NCBI GenBank assembly: GCA_041690215.1 | Contig: JAWLHQ010000002.1 | Span: 154,189-218,188 of the forward strand | Direction of reading: 5' to 3' | From: Rhodothermales bacterium | Lineage (GTDB): Bacteria > Bacteroidota > Rhodothermia > Rhodothermales > DASSAV01 | DNA: 64,000 nucleotides | Shown: positions 91-58,584 of the stretch, one piece after another | Layout of the letters: the number at the start of each line of letters is the position of its first letter | How positions within the stretch are numbered: the stretch's first letter is position 1 | Made by a program: the position numbers and the translations under genes | The notes under the pieces: generated by a model | Database searches by the model: none | Told to the model about the DNA's origin: nothing | What the model saw: only the letters and a program-made list of their open reading frames with translations

Positions 91-310
91 GGCATTGAGA
101 ACTAAATATCACATCGATGGAGTTTCGCAAGATGCGCCTCCCAGTGCATCTTGAAAGTTCGTGCATACGAAACACAACGACAACGTTAAAATGGATGTGC
201 AGCCGAATCGTTGCCACAACGTTATTCAGAGAATGAGAGTCCCCCGTTGCATGATGAGCGGGATTTCCGTTACATAGGGCCGCACTGTACACAAACTGAT
301 AGATGCCCCA

Positions 311-4375: not shown

Positions 4376-4677
4376 GGCAATAGGGTGTTCATTGGCCGTT
4401 AATCGGCCTTGTGTGGCGGGGTCGATCTAGAAAGGGCTCCTGCACATGGTATACAATGATCACGCCGCAGATGTGCCCCTATCTGATTTCAACCTGAGCG
4501 TACGGAAATAATCCGTCGCGTCACACACCTGTACACGGAAGCACACATGCCTGCCTTGAATGCTCGGCATAACCGCAGCAGGATCCGACATCGTCCGTGC
4601 CACGCTATCGAGCCGTGACTTTTAAAGCCGGTACCGCGGCTTTTATCGTATAGATCACCAGGCTTTCAGTACGTCCG

Positions 4678-10589: not shown

Positions 10590-12651
10590 CTTCCAATACC
10601 AATAGGTGCGATTAAGGCGTGCGCGAGCTGGAACACGTCGAAACCGATGCTGCGGAAATTTCAATACCAATAGGTGCGATTAAGGCCCAAACTCAATCAC
10701 CTGCGGTGCATAACCGGTGTAGGTATTTCAATACCAATAGGTGCGATTAAGGCCTGTGCGTGCCGCCGGCGGTGTCTGGCTATCGTTCCCATTTCAATAC
10801 CAATAGGTGCGATTAAGGCTTCGAAGGTGACGTCGTGCGGATCGGAGAATCTCAATTTCAATACCAATAGGTGCGATTAAGGCTGTGTCATGAATGTCGC
10901 AACAAGTATCGGCATCTTTCATTTCAATACCAATAGGTGCGATTAAGGCATTTGACCGGCCCGAGTTCCAGCGTCTCCTCGCTCATTTCAATACCAATAG
11001 GTGCGATTAAGGCAGGTAGCCGTTGCCGACGTCCGTATGATTGAACTCATTTCAATACCAATAGGTGCGATTAAGGCGAGCTGATCGCGCAGGAGGCCGA
11101 GCACGACCGTCTCAATTTCAATACCAATAGGTGCGATTAAGGCTAGCCCATAAGCGTGCTGCTGATACGGGGCACGACTAATTTCAATACCAATAGGTGC
11201 GATTAAGGCCGGAGAGAACCACGCGACGGGATAGCTGTCCATCGCATTTCAATACCAATAGGTGCGATTAAGGCTTCGTGGCGACCTGATCCTCAATGTG
11301 GGTGTAGACTATTTCAATACCAATAGGTGCGATTAAGGCTAGAACTGACCGAGGAGCAGTTAGCCGAGCTGGAGTATTTCAATACCAATAGGTGCGATTA
11401 AGGCGCGCCTGCGTGCGGCCGCCGATGGCTCTCCGGGCAAGTTATTTCAATACCAATAGGTGCGATTAAGGCGGCTTACGGGCCTAGAGGGTGAGCGTTA
11501 GCGGCGAAATTTCAATACCAATAGGTGCGATTAAGGCAATGGGATCGCGATAGTGGGGGCCAAAGGACCTTCTCATTTCAATACCAATAGGTGCGATTAA
11601 GGCTACCGCCGGTTACGCATACGCGTATGAGGAGGCCAAGATTTCAATACCAATAGGTGCGATTAAGGCGAACGGATTCGTTAATCTGCGAACCAGTACG
11701 TTCGAATTTCAATACCAATAGGTGCGATTAAGGCGAACGCATCATTATCAAACCAAAATCCGTAATCCGCATTTCAATACCAATAGGTGCGATTAAGGCT
11801 CCAGCGCAGCGTATGACGCTCGTAGCATACGGAGAATTTCAATACCAATAGGTGCGATTAAGGCACCCGGCCTGCTCCGCTAACTTTAGATGCTTTACCA
11901 ATTTCAATACCAATAGGTGCGATTAAGGCGTACGAATCGAGCGCTTGAGATCGCCGCTTTGCTCATTTCAATACCAATAGGTGCGATTAAGGCGGTTTCT
12001 CTGGACGTGTGCACGTCCACCCGGCCTCAATTTCAATACCAATAGGTGCGATTAAGGCGGTAGGATCTAACGACTCCTGTGCAGCATGCCCTGAAAATTT
12101 CAATACCAATAGGTGCGATTAAGGCAGAGTTCGAGCTTGCGCCCCTCAAGGAGAGGGTAGGATTTCAATACCAATAGGTGCGATTAAGGCCCGGAGGTGC
12201 CGATGGTCGCGCTCTGGAGCTGCGGAGATTTCAATACCAATAGGTGCGATTAAGGCGGGGCATTAGTCTACGCTATAAGCCTTCGCTTTCCTTATTTCAA
12301 TACCAATAGGTGCGATTAAGGCTCAAACAGACGGGACACATGATCGAGGTTCACCCCAATTTCAATACCAATAGGTGCGATTAAGGCTCGGAGGGCACCG
12401 CCCCGATCCGTCACGCTTCTGGCTCCATTTCAATACCAATAGGTGCGATTAAGGCTATAGGCTGTATTCTGGATGAGGCGGACGGCGGATAGATTTCAAT
12501 ACCAATAGGTGCGATTAAGGCCCGTTAATAATCCGCGCAATCTCTGCAATCTGTTCGTATTTCAATACCAATAGGTGCGATTAAGGCCTCATTCGCCGCT
12601 TTGATCGTCTTTTGAAGGTCGTATTTCAATACCAATAGGTGCGATTAAGGC
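10590..12651 (-). CRISPR. CRISPR array: 32 repeats (31 identical plus 1 degenerate distal repeat) and 31 unique spacers
   Basis: The 29-nt repeat is ATTTCAATACCAATAGGTGCGATTAAGGC on plus, which is GCCTTAATCGCACCTATTGGTATTGAAAT on minus. Repeat starts: 10590, 10658, 10725, 10791, 10855, 10921, 10985, 11049, 11115, 11181, 11246, 11311, 11376, 11444, 11509, 11575, 11641, 11706, 11771, 11836, 11901, 11965, 12030, 12097, 12162, 12228, 12294, 12359, 12427, 12493, 12559, 12623. Spacers are 35-39 nt. The repeat at 10590 has 2 mismatches (CTTC instead of ATTT). Minus orientation is inferred from the ATTGAAAT 3-prime end, the degenerate repeat at the far end, and the cas genes adjoining the 12651 end. 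Confidence 0.97.
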
Positions 12652-12889
12652 CCCTCCCAGATCTTGTGCGGGAATGGCTCTGGTGGGGGTAAAAATGGGG
12701 GTGGGTGTTCATGGGGCAGGTCGGGCGTGTCGTCGGGTGGCGGTAGTGTCAGAATGCCGGGGGGACGACGATGCGTGCTAAGATACGCAGAAACAGGTGT
12801 CTGTGCGAGCGGCTGTTGCTTTTCGGGCGGTCTGGACGTTCGTACAAGGGGATGCAGGCGTGAGGACGACGACGAAACGGCCTGAATGG
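12652..12889 (-). promoter_or_regulatory. putative CRISPR leader
   Basis: 238-bp non-coding stretch between the cas2 stop (12890) and the first repeat (12651). It contains a degenerate copy of the CCATTYCGTTACA-like motif, read on minus as AGCCATTCCCGCACAAG at 12663-12679, 11-27 nt upstream of the first repeat. It is G-rich on plus rather than AT-rich. Confidence 0.5.
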
Positions 12890-13153
12890 CTATAAAAAGC
12901 GGCTTCGTTCGCCGTGTTCTTCGCCCAGGACGACGCGCTCTACGTACCGCTCGTCACGTAGTTCGTAGAAGATCACGCCGTCTCCTTCCTTCATCAGCTT
13001 GCCGGCGTGTAGCTGTAGTTCCTGAAACTGTGCCCGGGTCATTTCTCCTTCGAAAACGGAGTTCTGTACCCAGGTCAGGTAGCGACGGAAGAGCTTGAGC
13101 ATTCTGGCTACTCGTTTCACGTTGACGTCGTAGACGGCGATGTAGTAGGGCAC
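12890..13153 (-). CDS. cas2: CRISPR-associated endoribonuclease Cas2
   Basis: 87 aa. MPYYIAVYDV...RV.K.....L.WVQNSVFEG is the classic Cas2 beta1 Asp plus ferredoxin-fold pattern. Adjacent to cas1 and the array. Confidence 0.9.
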   Translation of the reverse strand: MPYYIAVYDVNVKRVARMLKLFRRYLTWVQNSVFEGEMTRAQFQELQLHAGKLMKEGDGVIFYELRDERYVERVVLGEEHGERSRFL

Positions 13154-13205
13154 GGCTGGATCGGGGTCGGATGGTGGAGCGGGGTCAGGTGGGCGGGCTG
13201 CTTCG

Positions 13206-14282
13206 TTACCACCACATGTGGAAGCCGGTGTAGGGATCGGCTTCGGGGTCGAAGAGGTGGCGGATGAGGCGGTAGCACTCCAGGCGGATGAGCCGTTCGT
13301 AGCTTACGTTGCGCCCGAGCTCGCGGTGCCGGACGGTCTTCCGGAGGCGCTCGTCCCAGTGTTCGACGAAGACGCGGCGCCCCCGGTCGTTGAGGTAGAT
13401 GCCGCCGAGCCGCTCTTCGAAGTGCCGGGGTGTGATGGCGCCGGTCTTGATCAGGCGGAAGATGGCGCGGTCTACCAGGAGCGGCTTGAAGACTTCGCTC
13501 ACGTCGAGGGCGAGGCTGAAGCGGCGGTCACCCGGCTCATGGAGGTAGGAGATCGTGGGATCGAGGGCGGTCCGGTAGATCTGGCGGAGCACGGTGCTGT
13601 AGGCGAGCGCGTTGCCGAAGGAGATGAGGGCGTTGATCTCGTTCGAGGGTGGGCGGCGTTCCCGGCGTGTAAAGGGAAAGTCGCGGCCGGCCGGACCGAG
13701 GATGGCGGGCCAGGCGGTGTAGTAGGCTTCGCGGACCCGCCCTTCCACGCCCATCAGTTCGGGTACATCCCCGCAATGGTAGAGGCCTTCGCTTTCGACG
13801 GAGGCACAAATGGCCCGGACTTCTGCGGCAGGCGGCCCTTCCAGGCGGTTCGCGTAGTATTTGAGGACGCGGAGGATGTTGTAGACGGCGGCTTCTACGA
13901 AGGCGCGGGCCAGCCGGAGCCGGGCGTCGGGATCGAGGTAGTGCCGGACCTGCTGCACTTTGAGGCGGCCGGAGTGGAGATAGTCGCGCGGGTAGAGGGT
14001 AGCGGTGAAGTTGCCGTAGTAGTCAAAGCAGTGGACCGGGATGGCGTGTTGTGCGAGGAAGGTGATGAGCTTGGTGTTGACGTCCACCTCACCGAAGAGG
14101 TAGAGGGCTTCGACCTGCTCGACGGGGAAGGCGGTCTTTTCGCCCGTCGGGGGGCTCGACGGTGCTCCGGTATCCTCGGGGGTGTCGTCTGGCACGCGAT
14201 TCTCCCCTGCCCGCTCCAGGTAGAGGGTGTTGTGCCGCCGCCGCAGTCGTCCATTGCTGAAGAGGTAGAAAGGGCGTTTCAT
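13206..14282 (-). CDS. cas1: CRISPR-associated integrase Cas1
   Basis: 358 aa. N-terminal YLFSNGRLRRRHNTLYLE pattern. C-terminal alpha-helical domain with LHEPGDRRFSLALDVSEVFKPLLVDR (catalytic H/D/E region). Confidence 0.9.
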   Translation of the reverse strand: MKRPFYLFSNGRLRRRHNTLYLERAGENRVPDDTPEDTGAPSSPPTGEKTAFPVEQVEALYLFGEVDVNTKLITFLAQHAIPVHCFDYYGNFTATLYPRDYLHSGRLKVQQVRHYLDPDARLRLARAFVEAAVYNILRVLKYYANRLEGPPAAEVRAICASVESEGLYHCGDVPELMGVEGRVREAYYTAWPAILGPAGRDFPFTRRERRPPSNEINALISFGNALAYSTVLRQIYRTALDPTISYLHEPGDRRFSLALDVSEVFKPLLVDRAIFRLIKTGAITPRHFEERLGGIYLNDRGRRVFVEHWDERLRKTVRHRELGRNVSYERLIRLECYRLIRHLFDPEADPYTGFHMWW

Positions 14283-14382
14283 ATCTGGCGATCGGCTTTC
14301 AGCGGTCAGCTATCGGAAGGGAGAGTTAAACGTTGAAGGTCAGAAACAAAAGGCTCGCGGACGAAAGCCGGCGGCTGACCGC

Positions 14383-14937
14383 TCATCCGTAGCAGAGTTC
14401 TTCGAAGGCACAGCTAGCGCAGAAGCGGCGGCGGGTGAGGCGTGGGGGCGGGTGCTCCCGGACGGCAAGGTGCCGGAGTGCAGCGACGATCTCGGCCAGG
14501 CGTGCTTCGTCGGGCCCGGTGAGGGTGACGGTTTCGGTGCGGCGGAGCCTGGGGTAGTCGATGCAGCCGGTGAAGGGGGTTCCGTCGGAGCGGGTGACGC
14601 CGCACCGCTTGAGGAGCCAGAGGTAGAAGCGGAGTTGCCAGCGGTGGGCGTCTTCGACGGCGCGGCTTTTCTTGGTTTCGTGGAGGACGCCGTCGCGGAG
14701 GTCCGCCCAGTCGATCCGCCCGACCAACAGGGTGCCGTCGGGGGCTTCGGCTTCGAGGTCGAGCTGTTTGCGGCTGCGGGTGTAGCTCGCTTCGTCGATG
14801 AGGCGGCCCAGGGTGACGGCCTCGCTCTCCTGCTCCATCCACAAGCCCCGCATGGAGAGCCAGGCTTTCCTCGGGCAGACGGCGTAGTACCCGACGAGCA
14901 TCCCGCCGACGCGGATGGCCGTGCCTGTGTCGGACAT
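14383..14937 (-). CDS. cas4: CRISPR-associated exonuclease Cas4 (RecB-like, Fe-S)
   Basis: 184 aa. N-terminal CPRKAWL Cys plus C-terminal CASCAFEELC (four-Cys cluster). IDWADL ... LHETKKS matches the D..E.K nuclease motif. Confidence 0.85.
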   Translation of the reverse strand: MSDTGTAIRVGGMLVGYYAVCPRKAWLSMRGLWMEQESEAVTLGRLIDEASYTRSRKQLDLEAEAPDGTLLVGRIDWADLRDGVLHETKKSRAVEDAHRWQLRFYLWLLKRCGVTRSDGTPFTGCIDYPRLRRTETVTLTGPDEARLAEIVAALRHLAVREHPPPRLTRRRFCASCAFEELCYG

Positions 14938-14951
14938 GAGAAAGAACGAAT

Positions 14952-14972
14952 TGTAACGCGGGTGTAACGAAA
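14952..14972 (-). promoter_or_regulatory. tandem (C/T)GTTACA motif upstream of cas4 (candidate promoter or operator)
   Basis: Read on minus as TTTCGTTACACCCGCGTTACA: two CGTTACA half-sites 11 bp apart, 15-35 nt upstream of the cas4 ATG (14937). Identical over 21 nt to 40184-40204 on plus. Flanked by an 8-bp AT-rich inverted repeat (AATTGTAA at 14949-14956, TTACAATT at 14974-14981). Confidence 0.4.
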
Positions 14973-15118
14973 CTTACAATTTTGACCACGTGCCTCCGGA
15001 CCCGGTCACGAGGAGGTCAGGCCAGCCGCTCCGATGGCACACTTTGCACAGAAAACGTATGTGCAGGGCGCACAGGGCAGCGCGTATCGTGCGGAGGACC
15101 GAGTCCAGGAGGCGGAAG

Positions 15119-15135
15119 ATTGTAACGAAATGGAC
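15119..15135 (-). promoter_or_regulatory. single copy of the GTCCATTTCGTTACAAT motif in the cas7-cas4 gap
   Basis: Plus strand reads ATTGTAACGAAATGGAC. It shares the 15-nt TGTAACGAAATGGAC with the reverse complement of 40179-40193. It sits at the GC-composition break. Confidence 0.35.
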
Positions 15136-15214
15136 GATCTCCGACTATCGTGTATGGGGCTTGATGCGCGATTCGCTGTGTAATGGTCATTGTGCTGGGT
15201 CTATGGTGCGGTGA

Positions 15215-15231
15215 ATTGTAACGGAATGGAC
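15215..15231 (-). promoter_or_regulatory. single copy of the GTCCATTCCGTTACAAT motif, 18 nt downstream of the cas7 stop
   Basis: Plus strand reads ATTGTAACGGAATGGAC, one mismatch relative to the copy at 15119-15135. Confidence 0.35.
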
Positions 15232-15248
15232 AGGTTGCATAGGCTCTG

Positions 15249-16322
15249 CTATGCAGCAATCAACGTCTCCAACCCTTCTCCGTGAGCAAGTTCAGTGAGT
15301 AATTCTACTGCGGCTGCTATCCCCTGCACCTTGTGACATACTATAGCATTTCGATTGCCGTTCATGCGATTGGCTGTTCTCACCAGTTGCTCCAACGTGT
15401 CCAGGTAATTGTCCTTCATTGCACTGACGGTCGGAGCGGGGCAATTCGTGCTGGATGTCACAATCGCGCCTTCAAAATCCATGATATGTGGAAACTGCTG
15501 GCTACTGTTAGCGCCGGGCTGGTTCATCAGCGTGTAACTAAGCGCGTCGATGACTGCTTGCTTGCGCTTCCGACGTTCCCCTTCGTCGGTGACCGCGTAT
15601 TCATTCTTTGCGTCATCAAAGCCGAGCCCAGCCAAATCGATGGCAGCGACCATTGCAAAGGCAGCACTGGTAGCTGGACGAGTGAAGATGTTCTGCCCCT
15701 CTCCCGAAGCCGTCTCACGCGCCTGAATGCCGGTACGCGAGGAAACGTATTTTGCATGGAAAAAATGCTCGGTCATACTCTGGCGCGGCACACCTGTCAT
15801 GAATCCAACCTGCACCCTACTCGTGCGCGCCACAGCCACAGCAGCGCTGAATACACTCTTCTCCCCTTCTGCCTTCTGTGGACTTACCTCTGTAATGAGA
15901 AGTCCATGTGCATCCGTAACAACGCACTCGGAAGCCACCAGACTGTATAGGGCTTGTTCTAACTTATCCCGTTGAGCCCCTTTCACAGTACCACTCCAAC
16001 TCGCCACTTCCTGAACACGCTCCGTGACCCACTGGTAATCAGCTAATTCGCTCTTGATACGGTTTGGGTTTGGGTTGCGGCGGTCAGCATTCCGGCTGAG
16101 CGGAAGCCCGCGCTCCTGTGCGATAGCGCTTAGGTGTTTCGCGTGCCAATGTTTGAGCATGTCACCAGAAATGACGGGCACGCTGTAGAGCTTGCCATCA
16201 AGAACAATCGTTGCCGTGCGAGGCTGAAGTGCATTGCCTTCAGACCCCTCATTATTGAGTGAAGCAAGATTGAGCGTGAGCCGCCCTACAAGGGTAAGAT
16301 GATTGATCTGGTCCAGGTTCAT
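15249..16322 (-). CDS. cas7: Cas7 backbone subunit (DevR/Cst2-like)
   Basis: Starts at MNLDQINHLTLVGRLTLNLASLNNEGSEGN, followed by VISGDMLKHWHAKHL, both typical of the DevR/Csa2/Cst2 Cas7 families. The ORF track extends to 16451 and would overlap cas8. ATG at 16322 lies 25 nt after the cas8 stop. Confidence 0.85.
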   Translation of the reverse strand: MNLDQINHLTLVGRLTLNLASLNNEGSEGNALQPRTATIVLDGKLYSVPVISGDMLKHWHAKHLSAIAQERGLPLSRNADRRNPNPNRIKSELADYQWVTERVQEVASWSGTVKGAQRDKLEQALYSLVASECVVTDAHGLLITEVSPQKAEGEKSVFSAAVAVARTSRVQVGFMTGVPRQSMTEHFFHAKYVSSRTGIQARETASGEGQNIFTRPATSAAFAMVAAIDLAGLGFDDAKNEYAVTDEGERRKRKQAVIDALSYTLMNQPGANSSQQFPHIMDFEGAIVTSSTNCPAPTVSAMKDNYLDTLEQLVRTANRMNGNRNAIVCHKVQGIAAAVELLTELAHGEGLETLIAA

Positions 16323-16347
16323 GGCTTTTATATTTTGGAGTGAATAG

Positions 16348-17991
16348 TTAAGCAGCATCGGCAATGCTGTCCTCGAACCCACTTTCTTTGTCTTGCGGGA
16401 CACTCTCATTCTCCCGGCGACAAAGCGCAAATGCGAGAACCAGCTGTGCAATCAGACGAGGGTTCTGCGTTTGCTCCGCCAATTCAACAAGCCGCGTTAT
16501 TGACGGCTCAAAAGGCATGGCCAAGTATTTCAATGTGTCGCGATTCCCTTTAGCTGATGCCAGTTTACTGGTACCGCGCTCAATAGCAATTTCCACCAGC
16601 GCCTGAACGAGATCTTCCGTACTCTGTACTTCTCGTAACCGTCGCATCATCTGGTAGTTCGGCTGACTGTCTGCTTGTTCGGGTGGATGATAAACGGCAC
16701 TGTATGTCTCTTGCCGGACGAGATTGACAAATGCACGCACATCCTCCTGCCGAAATGCGGCAAGCAGGTCGGAATATCTGTATTCCATGATCTCCTCAAA
16801 GAAGGTTTGATAGAGTGGGTAAAAAGGTCTTTCACTAGAAAACCCTACATCAGCGATGTACCCTAAGTAGCCTTGGGCAGCGGAAGCAGGGTCGCTGTGC
16901 TCAAACCCACGAACCAGCAAACGCACAGCCTCCCGGTTTATAGAGGGTGGACTACCTACTTTGGGCGTCGTTGCTTTCTTCCAACGATAGAGTAGCATAT
17001 GTAACCGTTCCGCGGACATCTCACTATAACGATGCTGCGGCACGGCAAACTGCCATGAACCTGCAGGAGAAGGAGCGGCACCGAGTTCAATAAAGCTCGC
17101 GCCGGCAACGCACTCCAAAGCCTTAGGCCTGAGATGATGGCGGAGTAATAATTTCAGGTAATTCAGGTAATTGTCGTAAGGAAAGAAGAACCCATTACTT
17201 ATGATCCGCCTCCGGTTATCATCAACTAAGCGTTCGAGATAGGACAACCGCATATCTCGAGGCACTGGCAGTGCAAACCCATCTGGAATTTGCCCCGTTG
17301 ATGCTTTCAACAACCCTGCTACTGCAAGGCAAGTTAGGCGGCTCATTGAACGAGACAGGGATTTGGGTAGGCTGCTATTGCCTATACTAAAAGAATTGCT
17401 GGCATTTCCACCCTTGGATCCCTGAGGCAATACAATGGAATTGAATGTTATACTCTGCTCCTGAAAAGTCCCGTCAATTAATTCCAGTCCTCGGTGACGG
17501 CAGGCATACACACAAAGGTTTACCCAATCAGGCTTGCCCAGCTTATTAATGGTACCGTAGAGTTTGCGATCAGGCCTGGGAATTTCGATTGTCTTATTGC
17601 CGATAGATACTGTTACGGTAGTGTCTTCCGACGTATCCACCGCTGCCCCTTCCGTACTTATGAGATTCTTATCATCCCATCCAGGTGCTTTTCTCGTTGT
17701 ACCTTCTTTTAGCCCGCTTTTCCACGATGCAGGGATGGTGTATTTCAGCCAGTGCCTCTGGGGGCGGTCCCGCAGTTGTTTTCGATAGGTGATAGCGAAG
17801 CCCGCCGGAGTGCGCCTAATAAGCGGCGTTTGTGGCGTATCGAAGTAGGTATCGGCGAGCGCAGCAAAGCCGATGGCAGCTAGCGCATCGAAGTAGCCGT
17901 GATCAAACGGCGGCAACGTTTCTACTATTTCCTCTCCTCCCTCTGAGGCAGGTGTGGAAAAGCCGAGCGGAAGTTGTGCGGATTCCGACAT
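16348..17991 (-). CDS. cas8: Cas8-like large subunit (family not assignable by eye); possible internal Cas11 start at 16788
   Basis: 547 aa. Occupies the position between cas5 and cas7 that holds the large subunit in type I operons. Only a 3-nt gap separates it from cas5. The C-terminal roughly 146 aa look helix-rich. No motif was recognised. Confidence 0.55.
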   Translation of the reverse strand: MSESAQLPLGFSTPASEGGEEIVETLPPFDHGYFDALAAIGFAALADTYFDTPQTPLIRRTPAGFAITYRKQLRDRPQRHWLKYTIPASWKSGLKEGTTRKAPGWDDKNLISTEGAAVDTSEDTTVTVSIGNKTIEIPRPDRKLYGTINKLGKPDWVNLCVYACRHRGLELIDGTFQEQSITFNSIVLPQGSKGGNASNSFSIGNSSLPKSLSRSMSRLTCLAVAGLLKASTGQIPDGFALPVPRDMRLSYLERLVDDNRRRIISNGFFFPYDNYLNYLKLLLRHHLRPKALECVAGASFIELGAAPSPAGSWQFAVPQHRYSEMSAERLHMLLYRWKKATTPKVGSPPSINREAVRLLVRGFEHSDPASAAQGYLGYIADVGFSSERPFYPLYQTFFEEIMEYRYSDLLAAFRQEDVRAFVNLVRQETYSAVYHPPEQADSQPNYQMMRRLREVQSTEDLVQALVEIAIERGTSKLASAKGNRDTLKYLAMPFEPSITRLVELAEQTQNPRLIAQLVLAFALCRRENESVPQDKESGFEDSIADAA

Positions 17992-20960: not shown

Positions 20961-21671
20961 CTAGTGCAAGAATCCAAAACCACTTCCAGTGAGGTGACCG
21001 GCCCCTACTTCCCATGCAAATTGCACGGCCTCGGGCGTGCCAGCTACTATAACCGGACAAAGGTTGCCCTTAAATCGAATGCCCTTGATTTCCACAACCT
21101 TTGTCTTGGCTCTGCTATAGCTCCGATCAAAACCCATCAGGGTGTGAAGGTGAGCGCCGGAATAACCCGCTACCTGGAGCTTATTGCGTAGTGTTTCAGT
21201 GAGGTACCCATCCGCCTCCGGATCTCTAAAGGTTAGGTGTTTGCGGGTACTATCCTCTTCCACACTTGACCTGACCAGCACCGGACTACCGACCTCAAAG
21301 CGATAGATGCTTCCAAAAGCAGGCGTGGGCTGTTCCTCCACACGATAGATTCGCATCCCAAACGCAATGTGTGGGAGTTGCTCGGCATTCTGGCGCACAC
21401 GCTCTGCCAAGTTCCGATCGTGGATGCTGATGCTCCATTCCGCACCATTCGGAAAATGCAAACCATCACTCGCGCTTTTACTTCCTCGACCACGAAGCCA
21501 GCCAATTGAATAGCAGCTGATTTTGTCATGTACGCCATTCCACCCTGCGAGGCGATGAAAAGCGCCCGTGAGGTGGTGTGGATACGTATATGGGACTAGT
21601 TGCTTATTCGGCGTGAGGTAAAACTTCAGGCGCATATCAATGCGGGGTGAGTCCTGAGATGTAACAGCCAT
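20961..21671 (-). CDS. cas6: Cas6 pre-crRNA endoribonuclease
   Basis: 236 aa. C-terminal glycine-rich loop GAGHLTGSGFGFLH typical of Cas6. RAMP-like duplicated fold is suggested. First gene of the effector operon. An alternative start is M13 at 21635 (MRLKFYL...), because the 21660-21680 motif overlaps the first ATG. Confidence 0.75.
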   Translation of the reverse strand: MAVTSQDSPRIDMRLKFYLTPNKQLVPYTYPHHLTGAFHRLAGWNGVHDKISCYSIGWLRGRGSKSASDGLHFPNGAEWSISIHDRNLAERVRQNAEQLPHIAFGMRIYRVEEQPTPAFGSIYRFEVGSPVLVRSSVEEDSTRKHLTFRDPEADGYLTETLRNKLQVAGYSGAHLHTLMGFDRSYSRAKTKVVEIKGIRFKGNLCPVIVAGTPEAVQFAWEVGAGHLTGSGFGFLH

Positions 21672-21680
21672 GTAACGGAC
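21660..21680 (-). promoter_or_regulatory. tandem (C/T)GTTACA motif at the 5-prime end of cas6 (candidate promoter or operator)
   Basis: Read on minus as GTCCGTTACATGGCTGTTACA: half-sites CGTTACA and TGTTACA 11 bp apart, the same architecture as 14952-14972 and 40184-40204. Lies 25-45 nt upstream of the alternative cas6 ATG at 21635. Confidence 0.4.
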
Positions 21681-21752
21681 TTTCTATTAAAAAGTACAAG
21701 CGGCGGATTTCAATCGCAAGCGGGCACCCGGGATGATCGAAACCGGGGTATG

Positions 21753-22790
21753 TCATTCTCGCGTCATATCCCTCCGCCCTCTTTTCTCCGCATACAACGC
21801 GGCCATCCGCCGCGCCTCGGAGGCGACGCGGTGGCGGAGGACGGGCGGGGAGATCACTTCGGCTTCCGCCCCGTAGGAAAGGACCCATCGGGCCAGATCC
21901 TGCAGGCCTGCGGCCTGGAGCCGCACGTCGAGCGAGCCGTCGGGACGCTCGACCATCACCTGCGAGGGGTGCCAGCGCTCCTCCTTGATCCACCGGGCCT
22001 GGTAAGGGCTGAACCGGACGTGGACGGCGTAGGTGCGCTCGCCCCGATGCATCCCGAAGGCGGGGCCGAGGTAGGCCTCCAGGTCGAAGTCGGGCGGGAT
22101 GGAGAAGTATGCGCCGGTGGGCGTCAGGGCGCGGATGCGGTCTATGCGGAAGTCGCGCATGGCTTTCCGCAGGCGGCAGAATGCGATGGCATACCAGCGC
22201 CCCTGGTACGAGAGGAGCGTGTAGGGCTCGATCTCGCGCTCGGTCTCCTTGCCGGTGCTGTTCGAGGTGTAGCGGATGCGGACGACCTGCTGGTTGCGTA
22301 CGGCGGCTTCGAGGGCTTCCAGCCGGGCCAGGGGTACGGGAGGACGGGGGCCGGTTTCGAAGCGGATCGACCGGGAGAGCACCTCGGGTTCGACGCGCAC
22401 GGTTTCGGGGAGGTGTTCTGCGATCCGCTGGACGACCCGCGCCAGGTGCGGCCCGTGCACGCCGTCGCCCAGCGTTTCGAGCGCGTGGTGCGCCACCAGG
22501 AAGGCGGCGAACTCGGTTCGGGAGAGGGCCAGAAGGGGGAGGTTTTCGAACGGCCCTTCCAGCACGTAGGTCCGCTTCTTCCGATCGAACTCGATCGGCA
22601 CGCCGATCTGCCGGAGGTATTCCAGATCGTTGAAGACCGTGCGCCGCGATACCTCGAAGGCCCGCGCTACGTCGCGCGTCGTCAACGGGCGCTCGGAGCG
22701 CAGCCACTCGAGCAGCCGCTGAAAGCGCCGCACCTGCGGCCCGGTCGGCATCACGCGCCCGGCGCGTTTCGGCACTCCTTCCATATGCAA
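21753..22790 (-). CDS. WYL-domain transcriptional regulator (HTH-WYL-WCX)
   Basis: N-terminal HTH (LTTRDVARAFEVSRRTVFNDLEYLRQIG). Central WYL region (YQGRWYAIAFCRLRKAMRDFRIDRI). C-terminal extension. Directly upstream of cas6 on the same strand. The start may be M14 at 22751. Confidence 0.85.
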   Translation of the reverse strand: MHMEGVPKRAGRVMPTGPQVRRFQRLLEWLRSERPLTTRDVARAFEVSRRTVFNDLEYLRQIGVPIEFDRKKRTYVLEGPFENLPLLALSRTEFAAFLVAHHALETLGDGVHGPHLARVVQRIAEHLPETVRVEPEVLSRSIRFETGPRPPVPLARLEALEAAVRNQQVVRIRYTSNSTGKETEREIEPYTLLSYQGRWYAIAFCRLRKAMRDFRIDRIRALTPTGAYFSIPPDFDLEAYLGPAFGMHRGERTYAVHVRFSPYQARWIKEERWHPSQVMVERPDGSLDVRLQAAGLQDLARWVLSYGAEAEVISPPVLRHRVASEARRMAALYAEKRGRRDMTRE

Positions 22791-22985
22791 TCGTGTCTAG
22801 ATGGTATACAACGGACGCTCGTTAGCATACATCAGACACACTGCAGTACGATTTCATACCCTCGCGCGGGTTGATTTTTTTGTGCAGACGGAGGTGTGGG
22901 TGTCAGGTTGTGCGGCCTGAATGGCCGGGGTGAATGGGTGATGGCACAGAATGCACGGGTTTGTACGTGAATGGGGTTGGTTGTG

Positions 22986-25934: not shown

Positions 25935-26127
25935 GGTAGCACCTTCTTGTTCCGTTTATCCATCCAGGTCCAGGCTGGGGTCGGATGGTGTGGCAAGCAT
26001 AACTACCGCGTTCCGCAATCGTTCTATCTAGCGAGAGACGGTAACGGAATAGTTGCGGCATCCGGGAACCGCATCAGGGCCTGGCGGTCGTCCCGTTCCT
26101 TGCTCCGGTGCCTCTGGAGGCGCTGTA

Positions 26128-26164
26128 TACGAAAAGCGGCGTCCCCGCTTCCGGGGACGCCGCT
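26128..26164 (-). terminator. intrinsic-terminator-like hairpin inside a divergent intergenic region
   Basis: 12-bp GC-rich stem (AGCGGCGTCCCC, 6-nt loop gcttcc, GGGGACGCCGCT) at 26135-26164. On the minus strand it is followed by TTTTCGTAT. Confidence 0.45.
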
Positions 26165-26456
26165 CGACGCGCGCTACTCCACTCTGCCTCCTTGACGATT
26201 CCCATCCCTTCTCCGGCACGCTAGTCCAATAAATGCACGTTTCCGGCAGATGATCTGCCCACAGGAGGCCAATTACAAGGATTTCATGTCCGTTACGGCG
26301 CCATCGACATTCCTGCCGTTCAGGCAGAACGGAAGCGGGGATCGGCACATGCCGGCCGGAGGACATCCGTTGCGGCAGGATCATTCATTTTTCCACTATC
26401 GGCCAGGTGGGTAGTCCGTACATTCGGGCCACCGATCTTTCAGTCTACGTCGTTCC

Positions 26457-35800: not shown

Positions 35801-35811
35801 GATCCGTTACG

Positions 35812-35878: not shown

Positions 35879-35944
35879 TTTACTGGCCTGAATCTGCGAT
35901 TTACTGGCGTGAATCTGCGATTTACTGGCGTGAATCTGCGATTT
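35879..35944. repeat. 21-bp tandem repeat, 3 copies plus a 3-nt partial
   Basis: TTTACTGGC(C/G)TGAATCTGCGA at 35879-35899, 35900-35920 and 35921-35941. Copy 1 differs from the others at one base. Confidence 0.9.
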
Positions 35945-40162: not shown

Positions 40163-40178
40163 TCAGTCAGTCAAAAAT

Positions 40179-40204
40179 GTCCATTTCGTTACACCCGCGT
40201 TACA
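40179..40204 (+). promoter_or_regulatory. GTCCATTTCGTTACACCCGCGTTACA motif upstream of the DUF1501 gene
   Basis: Contains the 21-nt TTTCGTTACACCCGCGTTACA (40184-40204), identical to the reverse complement of 14952-14972. Also contains the GTCCATTTCGTTACA block shared with 15119-15135. Lies 134-159 nt upstream of the ATG at 40338. Confidence 0.4.
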
Positions 40205-41801: not shown

Positions 41802-41871
41802 GTAAGACTGGAAATGAACCGCCAGAACCGGCTTACACCCCTGCACACATGAGCTTCACCTGCAGCAACCC

Positions 41872-51414: not shown

Positions 51415-51616
51415 ACTTTACCGATTCCGGGCTTAACTATTCGAACGAAAAGGGGCGCAGGTACTACCAAAAGTAAGAAGTGAAAGATCCTGTTACCCAT
51501 ATCAGATCGTTACAAGATCCGTGCAACTACGCTGCTACATGCTCTAGAGAGCCGAACATCGCGCCGCTGCAGCGAGTTGGAGGGGCGGCTGCCTTCTTCA
51601 TTTTCCTGGACTCGCT

Positions 51617-52947: not shown

Positions 52948-53655
52948 ATGAGCAAATCTCATCCCTCCGAAATCAATATTCTCGTCGTTGATGACGAAGA
53001 AGATATCGTCGACATCATCAGTCACTTCCTCAGAAATGAAGGATACAATGTCGAGACCGCTTTCGATGGAGAGGAAGCCCTCGCAAAGGCAACGCCGGAT
53101 ACCGATCTCATCCTCCTCGATATCATGCTGCCCGGACTCGACGGATTTGAAGTGTGCCGGCGGCTCCGGTCTCGCGTCGAGACAGAGACGATCCCGATCA
53201 TCTTTCTGAGTGCGAAGATCGAGGAGGAGGACCAAGTCAAGGGCCTCATGCTGGGTGCCGACGACTACCTGACGAAACCCGTTTCCCCGGGCGTCGTGCT
53301 TGCGCACGTCAAAGCCGTCCTCCGGCGAGTAGGTATCGAAGAAAGTCGCACGATCCAGGTCAACAACCTGACGATCTACGAAGACGAATACCGGGCCACT
53401 CTCGACGGACAAGACCTTGGCCTCACACTGACGGAGTTCGAACTCCTCCGCTATCTCGTACGGCACCCGCGCAAAGCATTCACGCGCCAGCAGCTCCTAG
53501 AGACGATCTGGAAAGACGCCATGATGGTCACCGAGCGGACCGTGGATGCCCACATCAAAAACCTCCGTGAGAAGCTGGGCTCCTTCGCACAGCACATCCA
53601 GACCGTTCGCGGTGTAGGTTACCGCTTCGTAGAGGATAGCTCTGTTGAGGCCTAG
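52948..53655 (+). CDS. OmpR/PhoB-family response regulator
   Basis: ILVVDDEEDI, LILLDIMLPGLDG, and a winged-helix C-terminus (RTVDAHIKNLREKL...VRGVGYRF). The ORF track starts at 52843; I prefer ATG at 52948. Confidence 0.85.
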   Translation: MSKSHPSEINILVVDDEEDIVDIISHFLRNEGYNVETAFDGEEALAKATPDTDLILLDIMLPGLDGFEVCRRLRSRVETETIPIIFLSAKIEEEDQVKGLMLGADDYLTKPVSPGVVLAHVKAVLRRVGIEESRTIQVNNLTIYEDEYRATLDGQDLGLTLTEFELLRYLVRHPRKAFTRQQLLETIWKDAMMVTERTVDAHIKNLREKLGSFAQHIQTVRGVGYRFVEDSSVEA

Positions 53656-53698
53656 TTTCTTCGATAATGGCGCCGAGCCGCGGCGTCGCTCTGGCTCT

Positions 53699-55159
53699 AT
53701 GCGCTGGCTCAAACGAGTCGGAGACTGGTTTTTCCCGCCCCGCGCGTCAGTGCAAACGTGGATGATTCTCACGTTTGCACTGTTCGTCGGGACAGCGGTG
53801 GCCGGCGTGGCGTTGTACGTCTTGTTCGTGCTGAACGACGAGATCCAAGACGCCACGAAGCGATTGCTGCACCAGCAGGCAGAGCAAATCGCGGCTCAGG
53901 TCGAGCAAGCTCCGTCGGATGCGGAACGGATCAATATCATCCGTACGCTGAACAACGTTACGGACCTGGAGATCGCCGTAGCTTCGGCCGACACGGTTTA
54001 CGGAAGCGGCGACCTCGGTGCGCTCGTCGCAGCACGTGATTCGTTTCTGTATCAAGTCCAGGTACCCGCGGAGGAACGGTGGACCTTACAGCGTGAAGAG
54101 CAAGCAGGCTACCGAGACATGCTCTACGTAACACTGGACCGGCCTCAGTCCGGCCTCGTGTTTCGTATCGGGCAGCCGGAGCCTGCGTTGCTCGACCTTG
54201 TGCGCCGGATGCAGGCCGGCCTCATCGTTGGTATGGCGATGGCGCTTCTGCTGGCCATTCTGGGAAGCTGGGTCGCAGCACATCAGGTCACCAAGCCCCT
54301 GCAAACCATCGGAAATAGCGCCCGGCGGATCAGTGAGGGTAAGTTCGACGAGAAGATCACCGTTGATTCGCGCGCTATAGAGTTCCAAGAACTTGCGAGG
54401 AGCCTGAACCGGATGTCCGGAGGCTTTCGGAAGCAGATCGAGGAACTCCAACGGTTGGCTCGCATCCAGAACGAGTTCATAGGCAACGTCTCGCACGAGG
54501 TTCGCAATCCGATCTTCGCCGTCGGCGGATACCTCGAAGCACTCGGAACCTCCAGCCTCAACGACGAGCAACGCAAGCGCTATTCGGAGAAGGGCCTCGC
54601 CAATCTCCAGCGGCTCAATAACCTCTTCAACGACCTCATCGAGATTGCGCGGCTGGAATACCGGGAGGACCTCATCCAGCCCAAAGTCTTCGACCTAAGC
54701 GATATGGTGGATGAGGTAGCCGAAACCCTGCGTCCCAAAGCGGAAGAGAAAGGGCTTGCACTCGAAGCGGCAAACCCGCAAATCTTCGTATTTGCGGACC
54801 GGAACCGTATCCGTCAGGTCCTCACGAACCTGATCGAAAATGCTATTGCATACACCGACGAGGGCACGGTCCGTTGCCGCTTCCGGCGTCGGCTGGACAA
54901 GGTCCGCATCGAGGTCGTGGATACCGGCCGCGGCATTCCGGAAGAGCACCTCGAACGTATTTTCGAGCGGTTTTACCGCGTCGACCCGGACCGGTCCCGT
55001 AAGAGCGGCGGTACCGGACTAGGGCTGAGCATCGTCAAGCAGATCCTTCACGCTCACGGCGAACAAATTCACGTAGAAAGTACGGTGGGACGCGGGACGC
55101 GTTTCTGGTTCGAACTGCCGTATGCAAACAAGCCTGAGGAAATCCCTGCCTCGGCCTGA
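53699..55159 (+). CDS. sensor histidine kinase (HAMP-HisKA-HATPase)
   Basis: Two TM segments. HAMP region. H-box FIGNVSHEVRNP. N, G1 and G2 boxes (NLIENAI, DTGRGI, GGTGLGLSI). Start is uncertain (TTG 53645 or ATG 53699). Confidence 0.85.
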   Translation: MRWLKRVGDWFFPPRASVQTWMILTFALFVGTAVAGVALYVLFVLNDEIQDATKRLLHQQAEQIAAQVEQAPSDAERINIIRTLNNVTDLEIAVASADTVYGSGDLGALVAARDSFLYQVQVPAEERWTLQREEQAGYRDMLYVTLDRPQSGLVFRIGQPEPALLDLVRRMQAGLIVGMAMALLLAILGSWVAAHQVTKPLQTIGNSARRISEGKFDEKITVDSRAIEFQELARSLNRMSGGFRKQIEELQRLARIQNEFIGNVSHEVRNPIFAVGGYLEALGTSSLNDEQRKRYSEKGLANLQRLNNLFNDLIEIARLEYREDLIQPKVFDLSDMVDEVAETLRPKAEEKGLALEAANPQIFVFADRNRIRQVLTNLIENAIAYTDEGTVRCRFRRRLDKVRIEVVDTGRGIPEEHLERIFERFYRVDPDRSRKSGGTGLGLSIVKQILHAHGEQIHVESTVGRGTRFWFELPYANKPEEIPASA

Positions 55160-58503: not shown

Positions 58504-58518
58504 TCTTTGTTCGACAGT

Positions 58519-58568: not shown

Positions 58569-58584
58569 TCTATCCTGCCCGGCG

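What the first reader, a model, noticed from the sequence alone, without database searches (positions are those of the whole stretch)
14938..15248. 311-bp gap splitting the cas operon carries three copies of a motif that recurs at cas6, in the leader, and as a 21-nt identical copy 25 kb away
Type I operons usually run from cas7 straight into cas4. Here 311 bp of non-coding DNA intervene.

Copies within and near the gap:
- 14952-14972 (TGTAACGCGGGTGTAACGAAA on plus)
- 15119-15135 (ATTGTAACGAAATGGAC)
- 15215-15231 (ATTGTAACGGAATGGAC)
- 40184-40204: the first copy is identical over 21 nt to this site on the opposite strand, upstream of the DUF1501 gene, and that site continues into the same ...AAATGGAC block
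- 21660-21680 (TGTAACAGCCATGTAACGGAC): a fourth locus copy overlapping the first ATG of cas6
- 12663-12679: a degenerate copy 11-27 nt from the first repeat

Read in the gene direction, the three long copies each contain two (C/T)GTTACA half-sites exactly 11 bp apart, which is one helical turn. That arrangement suggests either a tandem-binding transcription factor or a promoter element.

Shorter look-alikes of the form ATTTCCGTTACA or TTACACCC lie 20-160 nt upstream of other start codons: 263-274, 26040-26050 (minus), 26288-26298, 41832-41849 and 45346-45359.

The motif therefore marks every transcription-unit boundary of the CRISPR-Cas locus. It may define separate promoters for the effector, adaptation and array units, or operators for the adjacent WYL regulator.
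Basis: seen in the sequence. Interest (0 to 1): 0.6.

Follow-up and report, generated by a model that had tools for sequence, protein, structure and literature searches.

The report
Repeated GTTACA control motif splitting cas operon
A 311-base non-coding insert between the interference and spacer-acquisition genes of a CRISPR locus carries several copies of a short GTTACA repeat that also sits before cas6 and before an unrelated gene. It most likely serves as a docking site for a host regulator, which would be an ordinary kind of gene control with a lineage-specific wiring.

Summary
The core observation holds. The 311-nt cas7|cas4 gap is non-coding and carries three motif copies. Related sites lie 25-47 nt before the real cas6 start and, as a 35-nt module (31/35 identical), before a DUF1501 gene 25 kb away. 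CGTTACA is the most over-represented intergenic 7-mer in the window. The leader "copy" and several look-alikes are weak.

- **Host:** a Rhodothermales bacterium, not a planctomycete.
- **The gap is lineage-specific.** In relatives cas7 overlaps cas4, or lies 79 nt from it. The PSD1|DUF1501 spacer is 11-13 nt in orthologous loci, against 175 nt here.
- **The gap belongs to the adaptation side.** Across strains it travels with cas4, while the effector alleles differ.
- **Motif architecture.** The strong sites are two TGTAAC hexamers separated by 5 nt (3 hits vs 0.06 expected). This is the pattern bound by OmpR/PhoB-family response regulators (WalR/VicR consensus; the RpaB HLR1 half-site GTTACA).

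Best reading (about 0.45): an operator for a host winged-helix regulator, sitting on or next to candidate promoter boxes, so that cas6-cas7 and cas4-cas1-cas2 are controlled separately.

The WYL-operator idea is not supported: WYL orthologues with a conserved recognition helix lack the motif. Nothing was shown to bind, and no transcription start was mapped.

The parts
14938..15248 (-). 311-nt non-coding gap between the cas7 stop and the cas4 start. It is a lineage-specific insertion that travels with the cas4-cas1-cas2 side.
   Evidence: no coding signal. It is absent in L193 (cas7/cas4 overlap) and 79 nt in L004. It is conserved in strains with different cas7 alleles (L155, L003).
14952..14986 (-). 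Site A, a 35-nt module: GTCAAAATTGTAAGTTTCGTTACACCCGCGTTACA. It holds two GTTACA hexamers 11 bp apart and ends 15 nt before the cas4 ATG. It is overlapped by a -7-box-like TAAGTTTC (14969-14976) and by a sigma70-like TTGTAA-N18-TACAAT.
15119..15135 (-). Site B: GTCCATTTCGTTACAAT, a single strong half-site plus the GTCCATT left part. It lies 158 bp upstream of site A.
15215..15232 (-). Site C: TGTCCATTCCGTTACAAT. It reads as an imperfect 8+2+8 direct repeat (HLR1-like score 14/16) and starts 17 nt after the cas7 stop. It is also the left edge of the DNA shared between strains with different cas7 alleles.
15052..15059 (-). TACGTTTT, a 7/8 match to the Bacteroidota -7 box, inside the gap and 122 nt before cas4. 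It is a candidate internal promoter.
   Evidence: Inference only.
21660..21682 (-). cas6 site: AAGTCCGTTACATGGCTGTTACA, with two GTTACA hexamers 11 bp apart, 25-47 nt upstream of the real cas6 ATG (21635).
21689..21719 (-). Candidate cas6 promoter TTG-N20-TACTTTTT (-33/-7 type), directly upstream of the cas6 site. With this promoter the motif would start at about +5.
   Evidence: The rule for -7 box position is taken from PMC9723704. Inference.
40170..40204 (+). DUF1501 site, a 35-nt module: GTCAAAAATGTCCATTTCGTTACACCCGCGTTACA. It starts 8 nt after the PSD1 stop and ends 134 nt before the DUF1501 ATG, inside a lineage-specific 175-nt spacer.
   Evidence: Orthologous spacers are 11-13 nt.
41832..41849 (+). 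Weak relative (CTTACACCCCTGCACA) in a second lineage-specific spacer (70 nt vs 12 nt) after DUF1501.
264..274 (+). Single copy TTTCCGTTACA in the intergenic DNA upstream of the HerA-like gene.
26041..26296 (.). Two core copies in a divergent intergenic region: ATTCCGTTAC (26041-26049, minus strand, toward 25455-25934) and GTCCGTTAC (26289-26296, plus strand, toward 26457-28499).
51489..51514 (+). TGTTAC ... TCGTTACA in the DPPIV|alr divergent spacer. The sister species L194 has TGTAAC at the position aligned to TGTTAC.
52948..55159 (+). OmpR/PhoB-family response regulator (52948-53655) and HAMP histidine kinase (53645-55159). This is only a candidate binder of the motif.
   Evidence: A conserved ATTCCGTTCAAG block lies next to its own -7-like box. 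Speculative.
21753..22790 (-). HTH-WYL-WCX regulator gene upstream of cas6.

Best explanation
**What it is.** The motif is a DNA operator. Its core is (T/C)CGTTACA, and in its full form it is two GTTACA hexamers in direct orientation with an 11-bp period, often preceded by GTCCATT. It is most likely bound head-to-tail by a dimer of a host winged-helix regulator of the OmpR/PhoB response-regulator type.

**How it got there.** In this Rhodothermales lineage, DNA carrying the motif has been inserted between genes that are contiguous in relatives (cas7|cas4 and PSD1|DUF1501).

**What it does in the CRISPR locus.**
- One double site sits just downstream of the candidate cas6 promoter.
- One double site overlaps a candidate promoter 15-39 nt before cas4.
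- Two further single sites lie 158 and 254 bp upstream in the gap, roughly in helical phase.
- The effector genes (cas6-cas7) and the adaptation genes (cas4-cas1-cas2) thus become two separately regulated units of a host regulon. Where the sites overlap the start region, the likely effect is repression.

**Shown vs inferred.** Shown: motif reality, architecture, positions, lineage-specific insertion, and linkage to the cas4 side. Inferred: protein binding, the regulator family, the promoter positions, and the sign of regulation.
For: - **Non-random and intergenic.** See (TGTWAH-N5-TGTWAH, 3 hits vs 0.06 expected).
- **Same architecture at three unrelated junctions.** The cas4 and DUF1501 modules are 31/35 identical, and the pair is the top non-CRISPR repeat in the window.
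- **Matches a known regulator consensus.** The architecture equals the WalR/VicR consensus of two hexamers separated by 5 nt (PMC4168254). The half-site equals the RpaB HLR1 half-site (G/T)TTACA(T/A)(T/A), and HLR1 controls a cas promoter (bioRxiv 10.1101/2023.12.07.570523).
- **Candidate promoter boxes adjoin the sites.** TTG-N20-TACTTTTT lies before the cas6 site, and TAAGTTTC and TACGTTTT lie before cas4. TAnnTTTG is 6/8 intergenic in the window.
- **The gap is an insertion.** L193 has a cas7/cas4 overlap and L004 a 79-nt gap. The gap is kept, with all copies, in strains whose cas7 alleles differ.
- **Host-specific, not cas-specific.** The motif is absent from homologous cas loci L004, L005 and L193 but present at DUF1501, alr and other genes here.
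- **Not an RNA or a gene.** There is no RNA structure or Rfam family and no coding signal.
- **A candidate binder is nearby.** An OmpR-family regulator and kinase pair is encoded in the window next to a motif-bearing spacer.
Against: - No binding or transcription data exist.
- The position relative to the candidate -7 boxes is not constant. The motif overlaps the box at cas4, starts about 8 nt downstream of it at cas6, and has no box nearby at sites B, C or DUF1501.
- There are no TGTWAH-N5-TGTWAH hits in about 135 kb of related Rhodothermales DNA. This includes a relative whose regulator is 89% identical (L192) and which comes from the same sample as a motif-less cas locus (L004). No conserved regulon is visible.
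- Sites B and C have only one strong half-site.
- The identical 21-mer at two loci could reflect recent duplication rather than selection.
- Strain-level conservation (96-99% identity) is too shallow to prove constraint.
- The orientation bias rests on about three independent loci.
Confidence: 0.45

Rival explanations
1. The motif is itself a core promoter element: the -10-like TACAAT of GTTACAAT, or the recognition element of an alternative sigma factor. On this reading the gap holds three tandem promoters for cas4-cas1-cas2, and the copies at cas6 and DUF1501 are promoters too, a kind of 'mobile promoter' module.
For: - Site A scores as TTGTAA-N18-TACAAT (9/12) in the sigma70 scan.
- TACAAT is 7/13 intergenic, and four of those are in the gap.
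- Site A also overlaps TAAGTTTC, a 7/8 match to the -7 box.
- All strong copies point toward the downstream gene.
- The module sits in inserts that split operons.
Against: - The conserved part is TTYCGTTACA, not the hexamer's final T. At cas6 and DUF1501 the hexamers are TACATC, TACATG and TACACC.
- Sites B and C have no -35 or -33 partner.
- The host appears to use Bacteroidota-type TAnnTTTG boxes. In sites B, C and DUF1501 the equivalent octamer is TCCATT(T/C)C, which lacks the key A at position 2.
- An ECF-type spacing (AAC-N16-17-CGT) is not present.
- Most transcription units in the window lack the motif.
Confidence: 0.2
2. It is a neutral or selfish short dispersed repeat: a scar or cargo of small insertions that expanded several intergenic spacers in this lineage, with no regulatory role.
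For: - All strong copies lie in lineage-specific spacer expansions: 311 vs 0-79 nt, 175 vs 11-13 nt, and 70 vs 12 nt.
- The cas7|cas4 junction is an insertion hotspot. L005 carries a 197-aa ORF there that I read as IS200/RAYT-like; its only Pfam match (Y1_Tnp, E=0.003, 18.1 bits) is below the 23-bit curated cutoff.
- The 21-mer identity suggests recent copying.
- A Logan contig breaks exactly at site B.
Against: - There are no terminal inverted repeats and no stable hairpin (fold z-scores from -0.85 to +2.2).
- The inserts share only the 35-nt module, not a common body.
- In the JGI metagenomes that contain this species, the double version occurs at only two loci.
- There is no similarity to plasmid or phage DNA.
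- The regular 11-bp hexamer phasing, and the placement next to promoter-like boxes at cas6 (which is not an expanded spacer), are not expected of a scar.
Confidence: 0.15
3. It is the operator of the adjacent HTH-WYL-WCX regulator, which would control cas6, cas4 and the array.
For: - A WYL regulator gene lies immediately upstream of cas6, and this synteny is conserved in L004 and L005.
- The cas6 site lies in the WYL-cas6 spacer.
- A GTCCGTT heptamer also occurs 20 nt upstream of the WYL start (22810-22816).
Against: - There is no GTTACA pair upstream of the WYL gene.
- WYL in L004 is 70% identical with the same recognition-helix core, yet the L004 and L005 cas loci lack the motif.
- The feature conserved upstream of WYL in both the window and L004 is TTGTATAC, not GTTACA.
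- The best extra copy is at an unrelated DUF1501 gene.
- From general knowledge, characterised HTH-WYL regulators bind inverted repeats as dimers, not direct repeats. This was not tested here.
Confidence: 0.08
4. It acts at the RNA level, as a 5'-UTR or inter-cistronic element: a protein- or sRNA-binding site, or a processing site.
For: - The motif is co-oriented with the genes.
- It would lie at +5 to +30 of the cas6 transcript if the TTG-N20-TACTTTTT promoter is used.
- Two further core copies lie on the sense strand inside ORFs (40490 and 61791).
Against: - There is no Rfam hit at any threshold.
- There is no significant or shared secondary structure.
- An 11-bp phasing of hexamers is a feature of DNA helices, not of RNA.
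Confidence: 0.05

Closest known systems
WalR/VicR-type (and B. subtilis PhoP-type) OmpR/PhoB-family operator, consensus TGTWAH-N5-TGTWAH
   Same: Three sites (14952-14968, 21660-21676 and 40188-40204) are exact matches: two hexamers in direct orientation, a 5-nt spacer and an 11-bp period (consensus from PMC4168254).
   Different: WalRK is a Firmicutes system, whereas this host is a Rhodothermales bacterium. The only response regulator examined scores below every NCBIfam equivalog cut-off, including YycF (196 vs 340 bits). Its recognition helix (HIKNLR) resembles BaeR more than WalR. No binding has been shown.
RpaB-HLR1 control of a CRISPR-Cas promoter in Synechocystis (bioRxiv 10.1101/2023.12.07.570523)
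   Same: An OmpR-type host regulator binds a pair of direct (G/T)TTACA(T/A)(T/A) repeats at a cas operon promoter. The half-site GTTACA(AT) is identical to the one here, and the CRISPR locus is wired into a global host regulon.
   Different: HLR1 has a 10-bp period (8+2+8), while the strong pairs here have an 11-bp period. Only site C fits 8+2+8, and imperfectly (14/16). HLR1 at the cas10 promoter sits at -70 to -53 and activates. Here the sites are at or just downstream of the candidate start sites, and there are extra copies inside the operon.
BaeR/BaeSR control of type I cas operons (E. coli; A. baumannii, PMC12625773)
   Same: An envelope-stress OmpR-family regulator controls type I cas transcription. 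The window's regulator is most similar to BaeR among solved structures (E 3e-46), and it lies among cell-wall genes (alr, ddl).
   Different: The published BaeR box, recalled from memory and not checked here, does not resemble GTTACA repeats. There is no evidence that this regulator binds the motif.
Separate promoter for the adaptation module (for example Csa3a-activated cas1-cas2-cas4 in Sulfolobus islandicus, PMC5587795)
   Same: The adaptation genes form a transcription unit regulated apart from the effector genes.
   Different: That case involves a different regulator family (CARF-HTH), a different motif and an archaeal host. Here the split is created by a lineage-specific 311-nt insert.
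Phage replisome-organizer or primase gene-internal iterons built from CGTTACA at an 11-bp period
   Same: They use the same heptamer and the same 11-bp period (L130, L124, L165, L121 and L126).
   Different: Those are arrays of 3-6 direct copies plus inverted copies, inside replication genes of unrelated phage-like contigs (GC 0.27-0.67). The window has at most two hexamers per site, lying in intergenic DNA with no replication gene nearby.

Membership tests
OmpR/PhoB-family response-regulator operator (WalR/VicR-type) | Two hexameric half-sites TGTWAH in direct orientation | tested here: met
   Three exact matches vs 0.06 expected; 0 of 100 shuffles reach 3.
OmpR/PhoB-family response-regulator operator (WalR/VicR-type) | 5-nt spacer, giving an 11-bp period (one helical turn) | tested here: met
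   The spacers are GCGGG (twice) and AGCCA.
OmpR/PhoB-family response-regulator operator (WalR/VicR-type) | Specific binding by a cognate phosphorylated regulator | not testable with these tools
   Needs EMSA, footprinting or DAP-seq. A candidate regulator is encoded at 52948-53655.
OmpR/PhoB-family response-regulator operator (WalR/VicR-type) | Regulon motif conserved at orthologous promoters in relatives | tested here: not met
   No double sites in about 135 kb from relatives. Only a single aligned TGTWAC half-site is found in the alr spacer of sister species L194.
RpaB HLR1 motif | Pair of (G/T)TTACA(T/A)(T/A) octamers separated by 2 nt (10-bp period) | tested here: inconclusive
   The half-site is identical. 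The strong pairs have an 11-bp period, and only site C scores 14/16 in the 8+2+8 register.
HTH-WYL-WCX regulator operator | Site upstream of the regulator's own gene that co-occurs with orthologous regulators | tested here: not met
   There is no GTTACA pair upstream of WYL. The loci in L004 and L005, which carry orthologous WYL genes, lack the motif.
Sigma70-type promoter (-35/-10) | TTGACA-like and TATAAT-like hexamers 16-18 nt apart | tested here: inconclusive
   Only site A qualifies (TTGTAA-18-TACAAT, 9/12). Sites B and C have TACAAT without a -35. The cas6 and DUF1501 copies lack the final T.
Bacteroidota sigma-A promoter (-33 TTG / -7 TAnnTTTG) | A TAnnTTTG box about 5 nt upstream of the start site | tested here: not met
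   The motif itself is not the box, because sites B, C and DUF1501 read TCCATT(T/C)C. Boxes do lie beside or over the cas6 and A sites (TACTTTTT and TAAGTTTC).
MITE / REP-type dispersed repeat | Terminal inverted repeats or a stable hairpin, a shared element body, and many copies | tested here: not met
   Fold z-scores are not significant. Only 35 nt are shared. The double version occurs at two loci in metagenomes that hold this species.
Structured cis-regulatory RNA | A conserved secondary structure or a known family | tested here: not met
   Rfam gave no hit at the gathering threshold or at E<=10. RNAfold z-scores range from -0.85 to +2.2.
Replication-origin iterons | An array of at least 3 phased repeats associated with a replication initiator gene | tested here: not met
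   There are at most two hexamers per site and no replication gene nearby. True iteron arrays are seen only in unrelated contigs.

The most novel reading that the evidence does not exclude
A short operator or promoter cassette, the 35-nt GTCAAAAWTGT...CGTTACA-N4-CGTTACA module, has been copied into operon-internal junctions in this Rhodothermales lineage. There it splits operons and recruits them, including a horizontally acquired type I CRISPR-Cas locus, into the regulon of a host envelope-linked OmpR-family two-component system. This could be the alr-adjacent regulator and kinase at 52948-55159. Spacer acquisition (cas4-cas1-cas2) would then be switched independently of interference, while effector modules are swapped by recombination at the left edge of the cassette-bearing gap.
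Probability: 0.2. Interest if true: 0.6.

Novelty: new member of a known kind. Interest (0 to 1): 0.38.

Why it matters
If the motif is a real operator, this locus would be a clean natural example of how a horizontally acquired CRISPR-Cas system becomes wired into a host signal-transduction regulon.

- The effector genes have lower GC than the adaptation genes and their closest relatives are spread among other Bacteroidota, which suggests horizontal acquisition.
- A small insert can uncouple spacer acquisition from interference.
- The case would extend the few known examples of OmpR-family control of cas genes (BaeR, RpaB) to the Rhodothermales.
- It would provide a defined 17-35-nt element for testing.

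If the motif is not a real operator, it is only a lineage-specific short repeat of little consequence.

Tried and rejected
1. **Planctomycete context.** I assumed this at first because of DUF1501 and PSD1. It was rejected when the response regulator and its synteny placed the host in the Rhodothermales.
2. **Genome-collection scan for the exact or near-exact 21-mer.** It returned 0 hits, so the species is not among the representative genomes.
3. **Genome scan for GTCCATTYCGTTACAMY.** The 113 hits are scattered single matches across many phyla. The exception is one recurrent match shared by many Haliea/Halieaceae genomes, which looks like a conserved locus in that clade. No listed contig has more than one match, and no two come from the same genome. 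This was uninformative.
4. **Metagenome scan for TTYCGTTACANNNGCGTTACA.** Only the two known loci of this species were found. The many other hits are phage replication-gene iterons or chance matches. I considered the iteron reading and rejected it for the window.
5. **ECF-sigma reading** (AAC-N16-17-CGT) on either strand. The spacings do not fit.
6. **Sigma-54 and NifA-UAS (TGT-N10-ACA) readings.** These patterns carry too little information and are not consistent across copies.
7. **Coding reading.** I tested ATGTCC... as a small ORF, and the 80-aa ORF at 15017-15259. Both were rejected: GC3 is 0.47, there is no Pfam hit and the frames are not conserved.
8. **Remnant of the IS200/RAYT-like gene seen at this junction in L005.** tblastn found no similarity in the gap.
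9. **RNA structure or Rfam family.** Nothing was found.
10. **Plasmid or phage origin of the gap.** No match.
11. **Literature search for the heptamer.** It returned only primers and an unrelated GcsR site. No papers on Rhodothermales promoters were found.
Full report
**Locus and observation**

The minus strand of the window carries a type I CRISPR-Cas locus with these parts:
- HTH-WYL-WCX regulator, 21753-22790
- cas6, 20961-21635
- cas3 (helicase N-terminal, HD C-terminal), 18618-20948
- two Pfam-less genes at the cas5 and cas8 positions
- Cst2/DevR-type cas7, ending at 15249
- cas4 (14383-14937), cas1 and cas2
- a leader and a 32-repeat array, 10.6-12.65 kb

Between the cas7 stop and the cas4 ATG lie 311 nt (14938-15248). 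They show no coding signal: the only ORF has GC3 0.47, no Pfam hit and no frame conserved between strains.

Three points need correction:
- The ATG at 21671 is an upstream in-frame ATG. Homologues of 223-224 aa place the cas6 start at 21635, so the cas6 copy lies 25-47 nt upstream of the gene.
- The leader "copy" has more than 3 mismatches in 17 and is not distinguishable from chance.
- Most upstream regions in the window have no copy.

**Is it more than chance?**

Yes.
- TGTAACG occurs 12 times vs 3.9 expected.
- The 17-mer with up to 3 mismatches occurs 3 times vs 0.07 expected.
- In an unbiased count, CGTTACA is the most over-represented intergenic 7-mer. Nine of its 12 copies lie in the 8 kb of intergenic DNA.
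- The cas4 and DUF1501 copies align over 35 nt at 31/35 identity (GTCAAAAWTGTnnnTTTCGTTACACCCGCGTTACA). This is the longest non-CRISPR repeat in the window.

The core is T(T/C)CGTTAC(A). It occurs 16 times vs about 4 expected, and 8-9 copies are intergenic and point toward the downstream gene. That orientation bias rests on only about three independent loci, so I do not count it as independent evidence.

**Who is the host?**

The window encodes an OmpR/PhoB-family response regulator (52948-53655) and a HAMP histidine kinase. The closest relatives of the regulator (82-88% identity) are Rhodothermales, including Rhodocaloribacter litoris. The neighbourhood DPPIV | alr - regulator - kinase - E1 dehydrogenase is conserved in those genomes. 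The host is therefore a Rhodothermales bacterium, not a planctomycete.

Consistent with the Bacteroidota-type promoter (-7 box TAnnTTTG at -12 to -5; PMC9723704):
- Six of the 8 TAnnTTTG matches in the window are intergenic, although the total count is at chance level.
- The regulator's own upstream region keeps a TATCTTTA-containing block between this species and a sister species.

This promoter assignment is my inference. I found no paper on Rhodothermales promoters.

**The gap is a lineage-specific insertion tied to the adaptation side**

- In L193 (Cas7 83% identical) the cas7 stop overlaps the cas4 ATG.
- In L004 (about 74% nucleotide identity across the locus) the spacer is 79 nt and has no motif.
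- In L005 a 197-aa ORF that I read as IS200/RAYT-like (weak, sub-threshold Pfam Y1_Tnp match) sits at exactly this junction.
- Within the species (L002, L003, L155, L185; 96-99% identity) the gap and all three copies are kept. This holds even where the upstream effector genes are different alleles. In L155 the homology starts at the left edge of copy C, and L003 has a diverged cas8/cas7 segment.
- The effector genes also have lower GC (0.51-0.55) than cas4-cas1-cas2 (GC3 0.83-0.85).

The same pattern holds at the second strong site. In orthologous PSD1-DUF1501-PSCyt/LRR operons (L186, L187) the spacers are 11-13 nt and 12 nt. Here they are 175 nt, with the module starting 8 nt after the stop, and 70 nt, with a weak TTACACCC relative.

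The inserts share only the 35-nt module. They have no inverted termini or stable fold and no similarity to plasmid or phage DNA.

**Distribution elsewhere**

- The 21-mer is absent from 185,579 representative genomes.
- A degenerate 17-mer gave only scattered hits that look like chance.
- In metagenomes the double version of this species occurs only at the cas4 and DUF1501 loci.

That scan also recovered unrelated contigs in which CGTTACA forms arrays at an 11-bp period inside phage replisome-organizer or primase genes. These are classical gene-internal origin iterons. They show that winged-helix-type proteins commonly read this heptamer at one-turn spacing. They are not homologous to the window's sites.

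In about 135 kb from related Rhodothermales there is no double site. The motif is therefore specific to this lineage, not to the cas system and not to the order.

**What the architecture says**

On the opposite strand the three strong sites read TGTAAC-N5-TGTAAC. These are exact matches to the WalR/VicR consensus TGTWAH-N5-TGTWAH: 3 observed vs 0.06 expected (consensus from PMC4168254).

The half-site GTTACA(AT) is also the half-site of HLR1, the operator of the OmpR-type regulator RpaB. RpaB was shown to control a type III-Dv cas promoter (bioRxiv 10.1101/2023.12.07.570523). Copy C fits the HLR1 8+2+8 register imperfectly (14/16).

OmpR-family control of cas operons is also reported for BaeR (PMC12625773).

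The hexamer starts in the gap are spaced 96, 158 and 11 bp apart, which is 9.1, 15.0 and about 1 helical turns. This is compatible with cooperative binding or looping, but that is inference only.

**Position relative to candidate promoters**

- At cas6, TTG-N20-TACTTTTT (21719-21689) would put +1 near 21684, with the motif from about +5.
- At cas4, TAAGTTTC (14976-14969) overlaps the first hexamer.
- TACGTTTT (15059-15052) lies between sites B and A.
- The sigma70-type scan also calls TTGTAA-N18-TACAAT at site A.

Sites at or just after the start point suggest repression. I cannot exclude that the module is itself a promoter.

**Which protein?**

The WYL regulator is unlikely, for four reasons:
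- There is no hexamer pair upstream of its own gene.
- The L004 orthologue (70% identical, same SRRTV..DL recognition-helix core) and the far more diverged L005 orthologue (29% identical) both sit in motif-less loci.
- What is shared upstream of WYL in the window and L004 is TTGTATAC.
- The best extra copy is at an unrelated gene.

The regulator encoded in the window is only a candidate.
- It belongs to the PhoB/CreB/YycF/BaeR/MtrA-like group but scores below every equivalog cut-off.
- BaeR is its best solved relative.
- Its gene cluster follows a spacer with TGTTAC...TCGTTACA. The first half-site there is TGTAAC at the aligned position in sister species L194.
- An ATTCCGTTCAAG block is conserved next to its own -7-like box.
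- Against it, L192 (regulator 89% identical) comes from the same sample as the motif-less cas locus L004.

**Verdict**

The most likely reading (about 0.45) is a lineage-specific operator for a host winged-helix regulator of the OmpR/PhoB type. It was carried into operon-internal junctions by small insertions. It makes cas6-cas7 and cas4-cas1-cas2 separately controlled units of a host regulon.

Rivals:
- a promoter module in its own right (0.2)
- a neutral dispersed repeat or insertion scar (0.15)
- the WYL operator (0.08)
- an RNA-level element (0.05)

This is a new member of a known kind of cas regulation. It is moderately interesting, mainly as a testable case of regulatory capture of a horizontally acquired CRISPR-Cas locus. 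No binding, transcription start or regulatory effect has been shown.

Noticed in passing
L001:720-1049 and L002:6035-6745, compared with window 12624-14382: In two independent assemblies of the same species, cas4 is joined directly to the last ~70 nt of cas2 plus the leader. cas1 and most of cas2 are therefore deleted, and in L002 the array is much shorter. This appears to be a natural adaptation-deficient variant.
   Followed up: partly
L003:4292-6203 and L155:1-230, compared with window 15250-17743: Strains that share 99% identity elsewhere carry diverged cas8/cas7 segments or a different cas7 3' end. The homology resumes exactly at motif copy C. This suggests effector-module exchange by recombination at the edge of the gap.
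   Followed up: partly
L005:9358-9951: A 197-aa ORF that looks IS200/RAYT-like (my reading of the sequence; the only Pfam match, Y1_Tnp, E=0.003, is below the curated cutoff) is inserted between cas7 and cas4 in a related locus, at the same junction that holds the 311-nt gap here.
   Followed up: partly
window 12879-12889 and 22914-22924 (minus strand); also 35886, 55195 and 55290: GCCATTCAGGCCG occurs right after the cas2 stop (at the leader start) and about 125 nt upstream of the WYL gene, so it flanks the whole WYL-cas gene block as a 13-nt direct repeat. The core ATTCAGGC is 5/6 intergenic. A 13-nt match is within chance for a window of this size, so its significance is unknown.
   Followed up: no
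window 35879-35944: Three tandem 21-bp repeats (TTTACTGGCSTGAATCTGCGATTT) lie in the spacer upstream of the gene at 35387-35806. They look like iterons or operators.
   Followed up: no
window 22803-22811 and 4448-4456; L004 about 3540: TTGTATACC(AT) lies about 15-20 nt upstream of the WYL start and again in the 3221|4678 divergent spacer. TTGTATAC also lies upstream of the WYL orthologue in L004. It is a better candidate than GTTACA for the WYL promoter or operator.
   Followed up: partly
window 21707-21714: ATTGAAAT, identical to the last 8 nt of the CRISPR repeat (the expected crRNA 5' handle), occurs in the WYL-cas6 spacer within the candidate cas6 promoter. It may be chance, since three other non-array copies exist in the window.
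   Followed up: no
L130, L168, L181, L134, L127, L148, L126 (metagenome contigs): Phage replisome-organizer-like and primase-helicase genes contain internal arrays of CGTTACA/TGTAACG at an 11-bp period. In the proteins these read as runs of VT.N/CNA residues. They are presumably gene-internal replication origins.
   Followed up: partly
window 58513-58574: A near-perfect 27-nt-arm hairpin lies between the convergent genes 57757-58503 and 58585-59745. It is probably a bidirectional terminator.
   Followed up: no
window 18618-20948 and 15249-17991: The gene order is cas6-cas3-cas5-cas8-cas7-cas4-cas1-cas2, with the Cas3 HD domain at the C-terminus and a Cst2/DevR-type Cas7. The cas5- and cas8-position genes have no Pfam or NCBIfam hit, and the subtype assignment was not resolved.
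   Followed up: no
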